64,000 nucleotides of DNA from a phage. The position numbers and the translations under genes were made by a program. Under the pieces are notes generated by a model. It ran no database searches. It saw only the letters and a program-made list of their open reading frames with translations, and had not been told where the DNA came from. Of this stretch, positions 29,301-64,000 are shown piece after piece. The DNA is taken from assembly GCA_027468165.1 (NCBI GenBank), contig GCA_027468165.1_3951.1. One strand, given 5' to 3'. Position 1 is the stretch's first letter, and each line of letters begins with the position of its first letter.

Positions 29301-29557
29301 TTTTACTCCCTCTAAAATCATTAACCACATACATTACTGCAAAAAATTATAAAAAGCAAGTTGACAATGTACTTGACAAGGTGTTAATCTTTGCGAAGTG
29401 GGTTTTTACTTAAAAGGTTACTTAACAGTTTAACTATACAGATACTTTAAAACTCTTAAAAGATTATTTAATAGCTTTTAAAAAGCTTTAAAGTATAACG
29501 TATAGAATACGTTAAGATAAAAGATTAAAACTTAATAGTTACTTAAAAGAGGCTTAC

Positions 29558-56494: not shown

Positions 56495-56510
56495 TAAGTA
56501 ATTTCTTAAA

Positions 56511-56532
56511 AGGCTGCTTCGGCGGCCTTTTT
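56511..56532 (+). terminator. Rho-independent terminator
   Basis: GGCTGC-TTCG-GCGGCC hairpin followed by TTTTTT. Confidence 0.55.
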
Positions 56533-56534
56533 TA

Positions 56535-56562
56535 TTTGTATTTTGTGCAGAGTGCTGTATAA
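56535..56562 (+). promoter_or_regulatory. Sigma70-like promoter
   Basis: TTGTAT, 16 nt spacer, TATAAT; about 30 nt upstream of the transglycosylase gene. Confidence 0.45.
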
Positions 56563-56594
56563 TTGAGGTCACGATAAACTAAACAGGAGAACCA

Positions 56595-59960: not shown

Positions 59961-60161
59961 ATGGCTGACTTCTGCAAAGATTGTGCTATCGAAATGTTCG
60001 GACGTGATACAGGAGACTTAAAAGGTCTTATCACTGAAGATGACTTTAAAGCTGGCTATGCAATGCCAGTAATCTGTGAAGGTTGTGGGTGTATCTGGGT
60101 AGACCACGAAGGACAACGTGTAAAACCTTCAGAAGATAAAGAATCTTGGGAGAGATGTTAA
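59961..60161 (+). CDS. Small zinc-ribbon protein (hypothetical)
   Basis: CKDC ... CEGCGC cysteine pairs. Confidence 0.3.
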   Translation: MADFCKDCAIEMFGRDTGDLKGLITEDDFKAGYAMPVICEGCGCIWVDHEGQRVKPSEDKESWERC

Positions 60162-60947
60162 ATGGGTATTGTAAAAATAATCAATGGGGATATCTTCTCT
60201 GCATTTGATAAAGGTAAGTTTGATATCATTGGTCACGGTTGCAACTGTATGAACTTAATGGGTGCAGGTATCGCTGACAAGATTTCTAAACTTTACCCAA
60301 AAGCATATGAGACTGATACAGAAGTTTATCTGTATGCAGGTGGTATAGGCCACAAACCCTGTGAAAATTTACTAGGTAATTTCTCTGTAGCACGTTTAGA
60401 ACAAGGCCGTATAGCTAACCTTTACACTCAGCTTAAGACTGGTAAAGATGCCCGATACAGTGCTTTAGAGTCATCTTTGAAACAGCTTAACAGATACTGT
60501 GAAGTCAATCAGTTGAAGAAAGTTGGTTTACCTATGGTTGGTGCAGGTATCGGTGGACTAGACCCTCAAGCCGTCACAGTTATCATTAATCAGGTGATGA
60601 AGAGCGTAGATGTTTACCTGTATGTCTACGAGGCAGAGATGTACCACGAGTTACACTCAGGTTGGAATAACTACTGTGAACCAGAATACTTTGCAGGTGT
60701 AGTAGTGTTCACTGATGATGCAGTTACCCTCTTCAGACGAAGAAAAGGTAAGATACATCAAAGTAACCCTCCGGTTGAGAAGATGTCTCTAAGTAACGCT
60801 CTAGTTACCCACCTGTCGAAGAGCAATCACAGAATTGCAGTAACATTTGGCAGTGATGCAGATACATATATCTATGCAAGAACTGATGAGGATGTTAAGG
60901 AAATTTTCTCTTCACAGGAAGTTACCTTCTTAGACGCAAAGAACTAA
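60162..60947 (+). CDS. Macro-domain-like protein (possible ADP-ribose binding/processing)
   Basis: DIIGHGCNCMNLMGAGIADKI resembles the macro-domain glycine-rich motif (cf. VNAAN..L.GGGGV); weak, from memory. Confidence 0.3.
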   Translation: MGIVKIINGDIFSAFDKGKFDIIGHGCNCMNLMGAGIADKISKLYPKAYETDTEVYLYAGGIGHKPCENLLGNFSVARLEQGRIANLYTQLKTGKDARYSALESSLKQLNRYCEVNQLKKVGLPMVGAGIGGLDPQAVTVIINQVMKSVDVYLYVYEAEMYHELHSGWNNYCEPEYFAGVVVFTDDAVTLFRRRKGKIHQSNPPVEKMSLSNALVTHLSKSNHRIAVTFGSDADTYIYARTDEDVKEIFSSQEVTFLDAKN

Positions 60948-61017
60948 GAAACTCTGTAGAATATTCACAATAGACTAAGCCTTTCTTATCTGGTAAATTT
61001 TTCAGGTAAGGAGGGCT

Positions 61018-61200
61018 TTTTCATTTCAGGATTGTGCAGGTAGATTTCTGGACAGAAATCTGTAGAGAGAATTTTGAACTCCAAAGAGAAAATTCATTTT
61101 CAAACTGTGCAGGTAATCTCCAAAGAGCTTTTTCATTTTCAAAACGTGCAGATAAAAATCAGGTCGGGCAAGAAAAATCATTTTAGAATTGTGCAGGTAG
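61018..61200 (+). repeat. Four imperfect direct repeats, core TTCATTTTCAAA-N-TGTGCAGGTA, in a noncoding region
   Basis: Copies near 61018, 61092, 61130 and 61177; also CTCCAAAGAG twice; the 70 aa track ORF here translates the repeats. Confidence 0.6.
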
Positions 61201-61375
61201 GTGAGTGTAGGTGGGAATGTCGCCATTTCTCACAAGGCTACCACATCCGAAAAGAAAAGTCAACAGAAAAATTTGTAGCGGATTGAAAAATAATTCTTGA
61301 TTTGTGTTCTGTTTTGTGGTAGTCGCGTGCGCCCGTTTCATTACATTTTTGCCAAAAATATTTTTAAAATTTTTA

Positions 61376-61404
61376 TTGACTCCTCGAACTGGTTTTTATA
61401 GTAT
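61376..61404 (+). promoter_or_regulatory. Sigma70-like promoter with an AT-rich UP-like element
   Basis: TTGACT, 17 nt spacer, TAGTAT (or TATAGT at 15); preceded by AAAAATATTTTTAAAATTTTTA. Confidence 0.4.
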
Positions 61405-61410
61405 TTGCAT

Positions 61411-61469
61411 CAACGGGGAGGTAATGAACTTCCCCACTAAGTAAAACCCTTAAACTAGGAGATTCAAAA
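61411..61469 (+). repeat. Cassette element X1: hairpin GGGGAGG..CTTCCCC plus conserved leader AAACCCTTAAACTAGGAGATTCAAAAATG
   Basis: Near-identical copy at 63179-63237. Confidence 0.6.
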
Positions 61470-61850
61470 ATGGCATATCGTGCACCTAAATTCATCAATA
61501 AAGACAACTTCCGCAACGCACTGGAAAAATCACTTGATGGGAATTTTACAGGTCAGATTATTGTTGTTCATGCATTCAATTTTAAGTATGATATTAACGG
61601 GAACAGAATCAACCATTACACGGCAACCATGTTAGATGGTACGCTATCAAGTGAAAAAGCTGTACTGAATGCACTTGCTGGACGTGGTAAAAACCTGATA
61701 AAATGCAATAAGAGACGTTATCAGGGCGGCGCATATGGTTATGATGATGCTGTTTATCATCTTGAAAATATGGGCTATTCAGTGGAAAAAGCTGGAGTGT
61801 CTCAAATAATCGGCAGTGACGGCTATGTGACAATATTCAAAATTAACTAA
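61470..61850 (+). CDS. Cassette small protein A (hypothetical)
   Basis: 126 aa ORF starting right at the conserved AGGAGATTCAAAAATG leader. Confidence 0.45.
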   Translation: MAYRAPKFINKDNFRNALEKSLDGNFTGQIIVVHAFNFKYDINGNRINHYTATMLDGTLSSEKAVLNALAGRGKNLIKCNKRRYQGGAYGYDDAVYHLENMGYSVEKAGVSQIIGSDGYVTIFKIN

Positions 61851-61853
61851 TAA

Positions 61854-61938
61854 AGTACTTTACAAGGGGTTTATAGTTCGATAAAGTAAGCCCCAGATAA
61901 AGAGCTTTACCACTCAATCCTAAATTGGAGATTCTAAA
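61854..61938 (+). repeat. Cassette element Y1: GTACTTTACA + hairpin GGGGTTTA..TAAGCCCC + AGATAAAGAGCTTTACC + leader
   Basis: Related copies at 62200-62286 and 63511-63597; leader variant CTAAATTGGAGATTCTAAAATG. Confidence 0.6.
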
Positions 61939-62196
61939 ATGGCTATTATCAAAAACGTTGTAATTACTGCAAAAACTCGCGATGACGCTCGCATCATGGC
62001 GAAAAAGTTAGGCGGGAAAGTTGTTGACAACGGAAAACAATCTGCTGTAAGGTGGGGCGTGAAGGCTGATAAACAACTAACCTTAAAACGCAGTTCAAAC
62101 AATCTTTTTAAAGGTGTAAAATCACTCGGTAAAGTGAACGTGTTTACCAAAAAAGGCTATAAAATGCGCTTGTCATTAACTGGCAATTTAATCTGA
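61939..62196 (+). CDS. Cassette small protein B (hypothetical, Lys-rich)
   Basis: 85 aa ORF after element Y1. Confidence 0.4.
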   Translation: MAIIKNVVITAKTRDDARIMAKKLGGKVVDNGKQSAVRWGVKADKQLTLKRSSNNLFKGVKSLGKVNVFTKKGYKMRLSLTGNLI

Positions 62197-62199
62197 TAA

Positions 62200-62286
62200 A
62201 GTACTTTACAGGGGGCTTAAAAGCTGATATCTTAAGCCCCAGATAAAGAGCTTTACTATATTAACCTTAAACTAGGAGATTCAAAA
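62200..62286 (+). repeat. Cassette element Y2 (stem variant GGGGCTTAA..TTAAGCCCC)
   Basis: Same flanks as Y1/Y3 with paired changes in the stem that keep base pairing. Confidence 0.6.
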
Positions 62287-63148: not shown

Positions 63149-63178
63149 ATTTGGTTTTAAAAGCAAGTAAATTACTAA

Positions 63179-63237
63179 TCAACGGTGAGGGAATGAACTT
63201 CCCCACTAAATAAAACCCTTAAACTAGGAGATTCAAA
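63179..63237 (+). repeat. Cassette element X2
   Basis: CAACGGTGAGGGAATGAACTTCCCCACTAAATAAAACCCTTAAACTAGGAGATTCAAAATG, near-identical to X1. Confidence 0.6.
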
Positions 63238-63510
63238 ATGTATACTACTAACAACGGTCGCACCTTAAACGTAACCCTGCGCCACTATGTAAACGGCGTG
63301 ATGAACTTTGAAGATTTACAAGCGGAGCAACACATTCTGGATTGGCAACTTGCAGGATTCCAAAAAACTGCTACCGGATACGGGAAAAAGATTCCAACTA
63401 GTTGGAAAGTATACTACGAAGGGCGTTTGCGCAGAATTTATCAGGATGTATACAGCAATAGCGCATCAACTTACATCATGGTAAAAGGTAAAAAATTGCA
63501 TTTAGTGTAA
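63238..63510 (+). CDS. Cassette small protein E (hypothetical)
   Basis: 90 aa ORF after element X2. Confidence 0.4.
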   Translation: MYTTNNGRTLNVTLRHYVNGVMNFEDLQAEQHILDWQLAGFQKTATGYGKKIPTSWKVYYEGRLRRIYQDVYSNSASTYIMVKGKKLHLV

Positions 63511-63597
63511 AGTACTTTACAAGGGGCTTATAGTTCGATAAAGTAAGCCCCAGATAAAGAGCTTTACCGCATTAACCTTAAACTAGGAGATTCAAAA
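63511..63597 (+). repeat. Cassette element Y3
   Basis: AGTACTTTACAAGGGGCTTATAGTTCGATAAAGTAAGCCCCAGATAAAGAGCTTTACC...AACCTTAAACTAGGAGATTCAAAAATG. Confidence 0.6.
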
Positions 63598-64000
63598 ATG
63601 GCTATCAATAAACGCGAATTATCAATTTTAAAAGCACGTTTGACCGTTAACCGGATTAATGTTATTACGTCATCAGCACCAGACGAGACACTGCAAAACA
63701 TTATTGGGAAGATTCAAAGTGTTATCTTAGACGTTGAAAGCGTAAAAAACTCACTGACTGACGTTGCAGCAGGTATCACCTTAAACGGTGCACAATATGA
63801 AATGGCTGACATGTTAGGCAAATCTAAGGTAATGAATAAAGAGCTTGATTTGAAAATGTTCAGATTCGCCGTAAAAGTATGGTTATCCGTCGATTATGAC
63901 GCAAATTTTGCAATCGCTGACTTTTTTGCAACATGGTTACAACGTAATTTGACAAATCACGATTTTCGTGATATCTGCGATGCAATTTATGCAGAACTTT
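63598..64000 (+). CDS. Cassette protein F (hypothetical; 3' end beyond the window)
   Basis: ATG at the conserved leader; frame open to the window end (MAINKRELSILKARL...). Confidence 0.4.
   Translation, partial: MAINKRELSILKARLTVNRINVITSSAPDETLQNIIGKIQSVILDVESVKNSLTDVAAGITLNGAQYEMADMLGKSKVMNKELDLKMFRFAVKVWLSVDYDANFAIADFFATWLQRNLTNHDFRDICDAIYAEL

What the first reader, a model, noticed from the sequence alone, without database searches (positions are those of the whole stretch)
60948..61410. Noncoding region with four iteron-like direct repeats upstream of a promoter
A roughly 460 bp region contains four imperfect direct repeats (core TTCATTTTCAAA-N-TGTGCAGGTA at about 61018, 61092, 61130 and 61177, plus a duplicated CTCCAAAGAG), followed by an AT-rich tract and a TTGACT-N17-TAGTAT promoter. 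The only ORF called here (61074-61286) reads HFQTVQV, HFQNVQI, HFRIVQV, so it is a repeat artefact. Spaced direct repeats next to an AT-rich segment are typical of replication origins or clustered regulator binding sites.
Basis: seen in the sequence. Interest (0 to 1): 0.55.

Follow-up and report, generated by a model that had tools for sequence, protein, structure and literature searches.

The report
Conserved protein-binding repeat array in phage
A Felix O1-like phage carries four copies of a ~27-base DNA motif in its largest non-coding gap, kept across the whole phage subfamily more strictly than the neighbouring gene; they are most likely docking sites for an unidentified phage regulator rather than a proven replication origin.

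Summary
The window comes from a Felixounavirus. The gap 60948-61469 is the largest non-coding stretch in the 64 kb. It holds four same-strand copies of W5-TCATTTY-N7-GTGCAGRTA, at 61016, 61089, 61128 and 61173. Nothing comparable occurs elsewhere in the window or in a complete relative genome.

The array keeps its position in Felixounavirus, Mooglevirus, Suspvirus and Kolesnikvirus, and five copies occur in a more distant 88-kb contig. Between genera the repeat cores are 84-85% identical. The adjacent macro-domain gene is 69% identical overall and 55% at third codon positions.

The array is not coding: the ORFs break in relatives. It shows no sign of a structured RNA: no excess folding and no Rfam hit. 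It is not the genome terminus: the terminal repeat lies about 6 kb further right.

The "AT-rich tract" is a near-consensus UP element in exact register with the TTGACT-N17-TAGTAT promoter. A fifth, solitary motif copy overlaps the -35/spacer of another conserved promoter 4.5 kb upstream.

There is no skew switch, no adjacent initiator gene and no DnaA or IHF sites. Published barcode insertions inside the array in phage Bas63 are tolerated.

Best reading: binding sites for a phage-encoded regulator. An accessory origin remains possible.

The parts
60162..60947 (+). Macro-domain ('phosphatase') gene. It is the upstream neighbour of the array in every lineage examined.
   Evidence: Pfam Macro PF01661, E=7e-7. 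phrog_335 'phosphatase'. Synteny in Felix O1, Moogle, phiSUSP1, M7, Si3, SB18, Coenus and L064.
60977..61018 (+). Intrinsic terminator hairpin of the macro-gene operon. Its T-tail (TTTTTCATTT) is the left part of repeat 1.
   Evidence: Terminator scan: 17 pairs. RNA fold -25.8 kcal/mol, z = -6.8.
61016..61042 (+). Repeat 1 core: CTTTTTCATTTCAGGATTGTGCAGGTA.
   Evidence: (49.9 bits).
61089..61115 (+). Repeat 2 core: AAAATTCATTTTCAAACTGTGCAGGTA. Preceded by CTCCAAAGAG at 61079-61088.
   Evidence: (46.1 bits).
61128..61154 (+). Repeat 3 core: CTTTTTCATTTTCAAAACGTGCAGATA. Preceded by CTCCAAAGAG at 61118-61127.
   Evidence: (46.5 bits).
61173..61199 (+). Repeat 4 core: AAAAATCATTTTAGAATTGTGCAGGTA.
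   Evidence: (43.3 bits).
61203..61256 (.). Unconstrained spacer. It is replaced non-homologously between clades: the window type versus the C-rich Felix O1/Moogle type.
   Evidence: Alignment of 34 distinct relatives.
61256..61350 (+). Block conserved in Felixounavirus, Mooglevirus and Suspvirus only. It includes a degenerate fifth repeat-like unit (61245-61282, 61% to the unit). It also includes a possible weak promoter, TTGATT-N14-TGG-TAGTCG. Function unknown.
   Evidence: (family D1). The promoter reading is my inference from the alignment; it is not called by the scanner.
61352..61373 (+). A/T tract CCAAAAATATTTTTAAAATTTT. It matches the UP-element consensus (-59 nnAAAWWTWTTTTnnAAAAnnn -38) at 14 of 15 specified positions, in exact register with the -35 hexamer.
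   Evidence: Read directly from the sequence. The consensus is recalled from Estrem et al. 1998, not looked up. The tract is conserved in all genera. The 40-bp window 61336-61375 is among the 0.1% least stable in the window, but at 100 bp the region is unremarkable at 4.6%.
61376..61404 (+). Sigma70-type promoter TTGACT-N17-TAGTAT. It is the first promoter of the right-end block of small genes.
   Evidence: TTGAC is invariant and the -10 element is conserved across genera.
61405..61469 (+). 5' UTR with a stem-loop (61415-61435) and AGGAG (61457-61461). This cassette recurs before other early genes.
   Evidence: Fold -16.4 kcal/mol, z = -2.5. Cassette alignment. Matches at 63160-63240.
56527..56563 (+). 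Solitary fifth motif copy: TTTTT-TTATTT-GTATTTT-GTGCAG, followed by N7 and TATAAT (56558-56563). The motif covers about -42..-20 of a promoter placed just after the rIIB terminator (56508-56531). This promoter heads the operon that ends at the array.
   Evidence: TTTTTTATTTG-N6-GTGCAG-N7-TATAAT is conserved with variable N6 and N7 in Felixounavirus, Moogle, Michonne, L104 and L169. The TTATTT variant also occurs in true array repeats of L070, L076 and L113.

Best explanation
The four repeats are DNA-level binding sites for one sequence-specific DNA-binding protein. That protein is probably phage-encoded and is not identified.

Layout: the sites form a high-affinity cluster directly after the terminator of the rIIB-to-macro operon. 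They lie 177-360 bp upstream of a strong UP-element promoter that opens the right-terminal block of small genes. A fifth, weaker site lies across the -35/spacer region of the promoter that starts that same operon, 4.5 kb upstream.

Most likely role: the protein controls transcription timing at these two boundaries. It would act as repressor or as a -35-replacing activator at the solitary site. The array would serve as the main occupancy, nucleation or titration cluster.

Shown here: the repeats, their uniqueness in the genome, their strong purifying selection, the absence of coding or RNA-structure signal, the promoter overlap of the fifth site, and (from published data) the dispensability of an intact array for plaque growth.

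Inferred: that a protein binds the sites, that it is phage-encoded, and that the output is transcriptional.
For: - The motif is confined to this locus plus one promoter-overlapping site.
- Copy number, order and offsets from the macro stop codon are conserved: 69/142/181/226 in the window against 67/142/183/228 in Moogle.
- The cores are 84-85% identical between the window and Mooglevirus/Suspvirus. The adjacent gene is 69% identical overall, 79% at codon position 2 and 55% at position 3. Spacers vary or are replaced.
- The motif is bipartite and asymmetric (TCATTTY and GTGCAG, 7 nt apart, with a sequence-free A/T tract). That is the pattern of a protein footprint.
- The right half-site follows phage lineage, not host. 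Salmonella phage SB18 (Kolesnikvirus) has GTGCATAG. Salmonella Felixounaviruses have GTGCAGGTA.
- At the solitary site, GTGCAG is invariant inside an otherwise variable promoter spacer in at least four lineages. It sits a fixed 7 nt from a perfect TATAAT, and the window has only a 3/6 -35 hexamer.
- Insertions within the array of Bas63 ('gene 96') score +0.24 to +0.98. That matches non-essential genes; DNA polymerase scores about -1.3 and ligase about -1.8. This fits a regulatory or accessory element.
- The Felix O1 paper states that temporal control of transcription is unknown.
Against: - No binding protein is identified.
- The array lies 177-360 bp from the nearest downstream promoter, which is far for simple repression.
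- The other early promoters carry no motif copy.
- The solitary promoter site was not found in Kolesnikvirus or in L064, within the flanks available.
- The only annotated regulator is an HTH_3 protein (Bas63 gp35). Proteins of that type usually bind palindromes, not asymmetric direct repeats.
- One array of direct repeats plus one site at a promoter is also the classic layout of an iteron origin with an autoregulated initiator gene.
Confidence: 0.45

Rival explanations
1. Replication origin. The repeats are iterons bound by a phage initiator, with melting in nearby A/T-rich DNA, possibly helped by transcription from the adjacent strong promoter. The solitary site would autoregulate an operon that encodes the initiator.
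For: - Four same-orientation repeats at one unique locus, in the largest non-coding gap.
- Very strong conservation.
- A locally unstable 40-bp A/T tract and a strong promoter nearby.
- The layout of an array plus a promoter-overlapping single site resembles iteron plasmids.
- No origin has been reported for these phages in the papers I could search.
Against: - The A/T tract is a near-consensus UP element in register with the -35 hexamer. It starts about 135 bp after the last repeat.
- At 100-bp scale the region is unremarkable. The least stable DNA in the window is 29423-29547, next to the DNA polymerase gene.
- GC skew stays at +0.11 to +0.15 across the locus and follows transcription direction only.
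- Flanking genes have no Rep, initiator or DNA-binding domain.
- DnaA, IHF and Fis consensus sites are not enriched.
- Repeat spacing is 37-75 bp, against about 22 bp for typical iterons.
- Insertions in the array, and in every gene of the upstream operon, are tolerated in Bas63.
Confidence: 0.25
2. Another DNA-level cis-acting role tied to genome ends. Examples are an accessory packaging signal, a DNA anchoring or partition-like site, or a pause signal for DNA entry.
For: - In Pr103Blw, which has annotated terminal repeats, the array lies about 6.1 kb inside the right repeat. That is about 6.9 kb, or 7.7% of the genome, from the right end.
- It sits at the border of the terminal block of small genes that each have their own promoter.
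Against: - The physical ends are elsewhere. The 581-bp repeat of Pr103Blw has no match in the window.
- Ends were mapped experimentally in UAB_Phi87, giving a 608-bp repeat.
- Insertions in the array are tolerated.
- I found no evidence for stepwise DNA entry in these phages.
Confidence: 0.08
3. A non-coding RNA or a small protein is encoded in the gap, and the repeats are part of its sequence.
For: - Felix O1 'ORF14', originally annotated in this gap, gave an RT-PCR product with maximum signal at 25 min.
- Several genome records annotate short ORFs here.
Against: - RNA folding is no better than shuffles on either strand: z = +0.28 and +1.13.
- No Rfam match lies within 60948-61470 at E<=1.
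- No promoter-like site is found between the terminator and 61376 on either strand.
- All four ORFs acquire stops, frameshifts or lost start codons in other genera.
- A 54-bp segment is swapped for unrelated sequence between clades.
Confidence: 0.04
4. A neutral tandem duplication of terminator-proximal sequence, with no function.
For: Repeat 1 shares its T-tract with the terminator. Repeats 2 and 3 form a simple 39-bp tandem duplication.
Against: Copy number, order and core sequence are maintained across at least five lineages whose neighbouring protein is only 34-69% identical. Spacers between the cores drift freely.
Confidence: 0.03

Closest known systems
Iteron origins (phage lambda ori with four 19-bp repeats next to an A/T-rich region; iteron plasmids such as P1, F, pSC101)
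   Same: Several direct repeats in one orientation at a single locus, with an A/T-rich tract and a promoter nearby. A separate single site at a promoter recalls initiator autoregulation.
   Different: Spacing is 37-75 bp rather than about 22 bp. No initiator gene contains or adjoins the repeats. The A/T tract is an UP element that starts about 135 bp after the last repeat. No host-factor sites are present. Insertions are tolerated.
Titration or control arrays such as P1 incA or E. coli datA (recalled from general knowledge)
   Same: A cluster of high-affinity sites for one DNA-binding protein, set apart from the site where the protein acts. Such a cluster is dispensable for viability.
   Different: Those arrays bind replication initiators. 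Here neither the protein nor its activity is known.
Activator sites that straddle or replace the -35 element (lambda CII direct repeats at PRE; T4 MotA box at middle promoters)
   Same: The solitary site has two conserved blocks either side of the -35 region of a promoter that has a perfect -10 and a poor -35.
   Different: The sequence is unrelated. No MotA, AsiA or CII homologue is known in these phages. The four array copies have no -10 element at the corresponding distance.
F plasmid sopC (tandem 43-bp centromere repeats)
   Same: Tandem units of about 40 bp, each holding one protein-binding core.
   Different: This is a virulent phage with no partition genes identified. The cores are not inverted repeats.
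Phage T5 injection stop region at about 8% of the genome
   Same: A repeat-rich non-coding region at the inner border of a terminal block of small early genes, at about 8% of genome length.
   Different: Two-step DNA transfer is not known for Felix O1-like phages. In T5 the region lies inside a 10-kb terminal repeat; here the repeat is about 0.6 kb and about 6 kb away.

Membership tests
Iteron-type replication origin | Three or more direct repeats of one motif, in the same orientation, at one locus | tested here: met
   Four copies, all on the + strand and unique in the genome. The spacing of 39-73 bp is atypical.
Iteron-type replication origin | An adjacent A/T-rich unwinding element | tested here: inconclusive
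   A 40-bp A/T tract at 61336-61375 ranks in the lowest 0.1% for duplex stability. It matches the UP-element consensus in register with the promoter, and it starts about 135 bp after the last repeat.
Iteron-type replication origin | An initiator gene that contains or adjoins the repeats | tested here: not met
   Ten flanking proteins were scanned. Only a Macro domain and a polynucleotide kinase were recognised; no Rep or HTH domain was found.
Iteron-type replication origin | Host factor sites (DnaA boxes, IHF, Fis) | tested here: not met
   Two one-mismatch DnaA boxes against 1.5 expected. Zero IHF and zero Fis sites.
Iteron-type replication origin | Replication starts here, or the element is required in cis | not testable with these tools
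   Indirect evidence only. There is no GC-skew switch. Insertions in Bas63 'gene 96', which spans the array, score +0.24 to +0.98.
Transcription-factor operator or binding-site array | A conserved short motif in non-coding DNA with unconstrained spacers | tested here: met
   Cores are 84-85% identical against 55% at neighbouring third codon positions. Spacers vary or are replaced.
Transcription-factor operator or binding-site array | At least one site overlaps core promoter elements | tested here: met
   The solitary site at 56527-56553 covers about -42..-20 of the promoter whose TATAAT is at 56558. The arrangement is conserved in at least four lineages. The array itself is 177-360 bp upstream of the 61376 promoter.
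Transcription-factor operator or binding-site array | A cognate DNA-binding protein is identified | not tested
   No candidate was tested. The only annotated regulator, Bas63 gp35, is an HTH_3 protein.
Genome terminus or terminase recognition site | Coincides with the physical ends or the terminal repeat | tested here: not met
   The annotated 581-bp terminal repeat of Pr103Blw has no match in the window. It lies about 6.1 kb to the right of the array. Ends were mapped experimentally in UAB_Phi87.
Structured non-coding RNA | Excess folding stability or a match to a known family | tested here: not met
   z = +0.28 on the + strand and +1.13 on the - strand. No Rfam hit lies in the gap.
Protein-coding gene | The reading frame is preserved in relatives | tested here: not met
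   The four ORFs are intact in 5 to 19 of 30 relatives, and in none of the other genera.

The most novel reading that the evidence does not exclude
The array marks the inner border of a right-terminal block of about 6.9 kb (7.7% of the genome). That block would be transferred or expressed first, so the array would be a protein-bound pause or barrier site. It would be analogous to the T5 injection stop region and would separate host-takeover genes from the rest of the genome. A milder version: the four sites are a titration cluster that times when the regulator reaches the weaker promoter site 4.5 kb upstream.
Probability: 0.05. Interest if true: 0.8.

Novelty: new member of a known kind. Interest (0 to 1): 0.45.

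Why it matters
Felix O1 and its relatives are widely used for Salmonella typing, biocontrol and therapy. Yet their genome paper states that temporal control of transcription is unknown, and I found no reported origin.

This array is the most strongly conserved non-coding element of the region and it is unique in the genome. Together with the promoter-overlapping fifth site, it gives a defined 27-bp probe for fishing out the missing regulator or initiator. It also defines two promoters to test.

For phage engineers, it flags a 0.5-kb "empty" gap that tolerates insertions but is under strong selection in nature.

Tried and rejected
- **Rfam scan of 58-64 kb:** nothing in the gap.
- **RNA folding of 61019-61375, both strands:** no better than shuffles.
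- **GC and AT skew:** follows transcription direction only, with no switch at 61 kb.
- **Genome terminus or pac site:** the terminal repeat of Pr103Blw is absent from the window. Several metagenome contigs end inside the gap, but one carries a Nextera adapter, one is chimeric, and they break in a C-rich tract. I treat these as assembly artefacts.
- **Host-factor sites** (DnaA, IHF, Fis, CRP, sigma54, oriC-type 13-mers): none enriched. My by-eye comparisons with marbox, Fur, sigmaE and sigma70 promoters on either strand gave no consistent match across the four copies.
- **Array copies as promoters:** none has a -10-like hexamer at the position where the solitary site has one.
- **Two-copy motif scans:** in IMG/VR (43 loci) and metagenomes (120 loci), every true array was Ounavirinae-like. 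All other hits were coding repeats.
- **Pfam and PHROG scans of neighbouring genes:** no candidate binder.
- **Literature:** the Felix O1, wV8, BASEL, UAB_Phi87 and rV5 papers do not describe the repeats or an origin. The phiEa21-4 genome paper was not available. No transcriptome study was found.
- **CRISPR-like mini-array:** considered and rejected, because the 39-45-bp period is too short and the spacers are conserved.

Full report
**Identity and setting**

The window is from a Felix O1-like myovirus (genus Felixounavirus, subfamily Ounavirinae). The 801 bp around the finding are 97.5% identical to Salmonella phage RPN213, and 288 phage records match.

The finding lies in the gap 60948-61469. 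Upstream is a macro-domain 'phosphatase' gene at 60162-60947 (Pfam Macro). Downstream is a 126-aa gene of unknown function that starts at 61470. This 522-bp gap is the largest stretch in the 64 kb without any ORF of at least 75 aa.

- The pattern TCATTTNNNRANYGTGCAGRTA matches perfectly at 61021, 61094, 61133 and 61178, all on the + strand. Chance expectation is 0.48.
- With the preceding A/T pentamer, the 27-nt cores are 61016-61042, 61089-61115, 61128-61154 and 61173-61199.
- The unit extends upstream into a purine-rich block, CTCCAAAGAG at 61079 and 61118. Repeats 2 and 3 therefore form a 39-bp tandem repeat, the best-scoring one in the window.
- A weight matrix scores the four copies 43-50 bits against 14.9 for the next site in the window.
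- In the complete genome of relative Bas63, the four sites score 32-38 bits against 14.3 for the next. Shuffled genomes reach at most 14.7.
- The promoter TTGACT-N17-TAGTAT is at 61376-61404.

**Conservation**

The same gap with the same array follows the macro gene in several lineages:

- Felix O1, Moogle, phiSUSP1 and Erwinia phage M7.
- Si3, SB18 and Coenus.
- 29 IMG/VR loci.
- A more distant 88-kb contig, L064. There the macro protein is only 148 aa and there are five copies.

Offsets from the stop codon are almost fixed: 69/142/181/226 in the window against 67/142/183/228 in Moogle. Kolesnikvirus has four evenly spaced copies at 37, 37 and 39 bp.

Between the window and Mooglevirus or Suspvirus, the 108 nt of cores are 84-85% identical. 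The neighbouring gene is 69% identical overall, 79% at second and 55% at third codon positions.

Spacers drift. One 54-bp segment, 61203-61256, is replaced by unrelated, C-rich sequence in the Felix O1/Moogle type.

The motif has two invariant blocks, TCATTTY and GTGCA, 7 nt apart. They are preceded by an A/T pentamer whose orientation is free (T5 or A5).

The right block is GTGCAGGTA in Felixounavirus, Mooglevirus and Suspvirus. It is GTGCATAG in Kolesnikvirus and L064. Salmonella phage SB18 (Kolesnikvirus) carries the Kolesnikvirus form although it shares its host genus with Felix O1. I take this as a sign that the reader of the motif is phage-encoded. That is an inference.

**What it is not**

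*Not coding.* The four ORFs of the gap are interrupted, frameshifted or lack start codons in other genera.

*No sign of a structured RNA.*
- Folding z-scores are +0.28 and +1.13.
- Rfam finds nothing in the gap.
- No promoter-like site lies between the terminator and 61376.

*Not the genome end.*
- Felixounaviruses have short direct terminal repeats: 581 bp by PhageTerm in Pr103Blw and 608 bp mapped by Bal31 and run-off sequencing in UAB_Phi87.
- The annotated Pr103Blw repeat has no match in the window.
- In that genome the array lies about 6.1 kb left of the right repeat.
- In Bas63 the ends fall in the 1.66-kb gap between genes 111 and 112.

**The surroundings**

A strong intrinsic terminator at 60977-61018 (-25.8 kcal/mol, z = -6.8) ends the macro-gene operon. 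Its T-tail is the left part of repeat 1.

The "AT-rich tract" at 61352-61373 reads CCAAAAATATTTTTAAAATTTT. This matches the UP-element consensus as I recall it (Estrem et al. 1998) at 14 of 15 specified positions, with position -38 falling two bases before TTGACT. The tract is conserved in all genera.

At 40 bp it is among the 0.1% least stable windows. At 100 bp the region is ordinary. The least stable DNA of the window is the divergent gap at 29.4 kb, next to the DNA polymerase gene. The tract is therefore explained by promoter function and need not be an unwinding element.

**A fifth copy**

The weak matrix hit at 56516 turned out to be conserved. Just after the rIIB terminator (56508-56531) lies TTTTTTATTTG-N6-GTGCAG-N7-TATAAT.

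- The N6 and N7 spacers differ among Felixounavirus, Moogle, Michonne, L104 and L169, while GTGCAG is invariant.
- The TTATTT variant also occurs in genuine array repeats of three relatives.
- The motif covers about -42..-20 of a promoter with a perfect -10. In the window this promoter has only a 3/6 -35 hexamer.
- It is the only GTGCAG in the window followed by a -10-like hexamer at that distance.
- A relaxed pattern finds just these five intergenic sites, plus one coding hit, in the whole Bas63 genome.
- This promoter heads the operon that ends at the array: SLT-like secreted protein, polynucleotide kinase, spanins, small genes and macro.
- I did not find such a site in Kolesnikvirus or L064 within the flanks available.

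**Tests of the origin idea**

- GC skew stays positive at 0.11-0.15 across the locus and changes only where transcription direction changes.
- Flanking proteins carry no initiator or DNA-binding domain.
- DnaA, IHF and Fis consensus sites are not enriched.
- The PhageMaP study inserted barcodes genome-wide in Bas63. Its 'gene 96' (64142-64297) is a spurious minus-strand ORF running from repeat 1 to the start of repeat 4.
- That 'gene' scored +0.24 to +0.98 in every condition shown. This is like the macro gene (+0.6 to +1.1) and unlike DNA polymerase (about -1.3) or ligase (about -1.8).
- All genes of the upstream operon also score as non-essential.
- A single insertion may leave three sites working, so this rules out only an essential element that needs all sites intact. 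'Gene 97', which covers the downstream conserved block, has no data.

**Conclusion**

The best-supported reading is a cluster of binding sites for one phage-specific DNA-binding protein that acts in transcription control. A high-affinity array sits at the terminator/promoter boundary, and a weaker operator-like site sits on the promoter of the upstream operon.

Whether the protein represses, or replaces -35 recognition, cannot be decided from sequence. An accessory origin with an autoregulated initiator has the same layout and remains the main rival.

The papers I could read do not mention these repeats or an origin. The Felix O1 paper states that temporal regulation is unknown, and it reports an RT-PCR product for the former ORF14 in this gap with a maximum at 25 min. 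The phiEa21-4 genome paper could not be read.

I therefore rate the element as a new, undescribed member of a familiar kind: clustered direct-repeat protein-binding sites. It is of moderate interest.

Noticed in passing
window 56527-56563: A solitary copy of the repeat motif (TTATTT variant) overlaps the -35/spacer of a promoter with a perfect TATAAT, directly after the rIIB terminator. The arrangement is conserved in several genera.
   Followed up: yes
whole window 1-64000: The tetranucleotide GATC is completely absent. There are 0 sites against 184 +/- 11 expected from dinucleotide-preserving shuffles. This is extreme avoidance of the Dam/MboI/Sau3AI-type site.
   Followed up: partly
window 29331-29557: The divergent gap next to the DNA polymerase gene is the most A/T-rich (25% GC) and least stable DNA of the window. 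It holds a 27-nt near-palindrome and direct repeats CTTAAAAGRTTAYTTAAYAG. It is an alternative candidate for an origin or a divergent-promoter control region.
   Followed up: partly
window 61405-61469, 61845-61938, 62195-62286, 63150-63240, 63505-63600: The small right-end genes are each preceded by one of two recurring promoter/stem-loop/RBS cassettes. Gene content behind the first cassette differs between relatives; RPN213, for example, has an extra 204-bp gene. This suggests cassette-mediated gene shuffling.
   Followed up: partly
window 61203-61256; L002 and L003 equivalents: Two unrelated alleles occupy this spacer. The Felix O1/Moogle allele is a polypyrimidine tract (CCCCTCTCCCCCTCTTACTCCCCCTCCCCCC). 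On the opposite strand it has four or more G-runs, so it is capable of forming a G-quadruplex.
   Followed up: no
L020, L021, L023, L028 (IMG/VR contigs from metagenome 3300045988): Four near-full-length contigs end 300-415 bp after the macro gene. L021 ends in a Nextera adapter sequence and L023 continues into unrelated sequence. These are probably assembly breaks at the C-rich tract or at strain-variable DNA, not physical ends.
   Followed up: partly
L064 660-790 (minus strand): In the distant relative, the five repeats are followed by about 150 bp with TTAACA recurring roughly every 11 bp. No equivalent is seen in the window.
   Followed up: no
window 59961-60161: The 66-aa gene just upstream of the macro gene has CxxC...CxxCxC spacing typical of a small zinc-ribbon protein. 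It has no family annotation (phrog_2210, function unknown).
   Followed up: no
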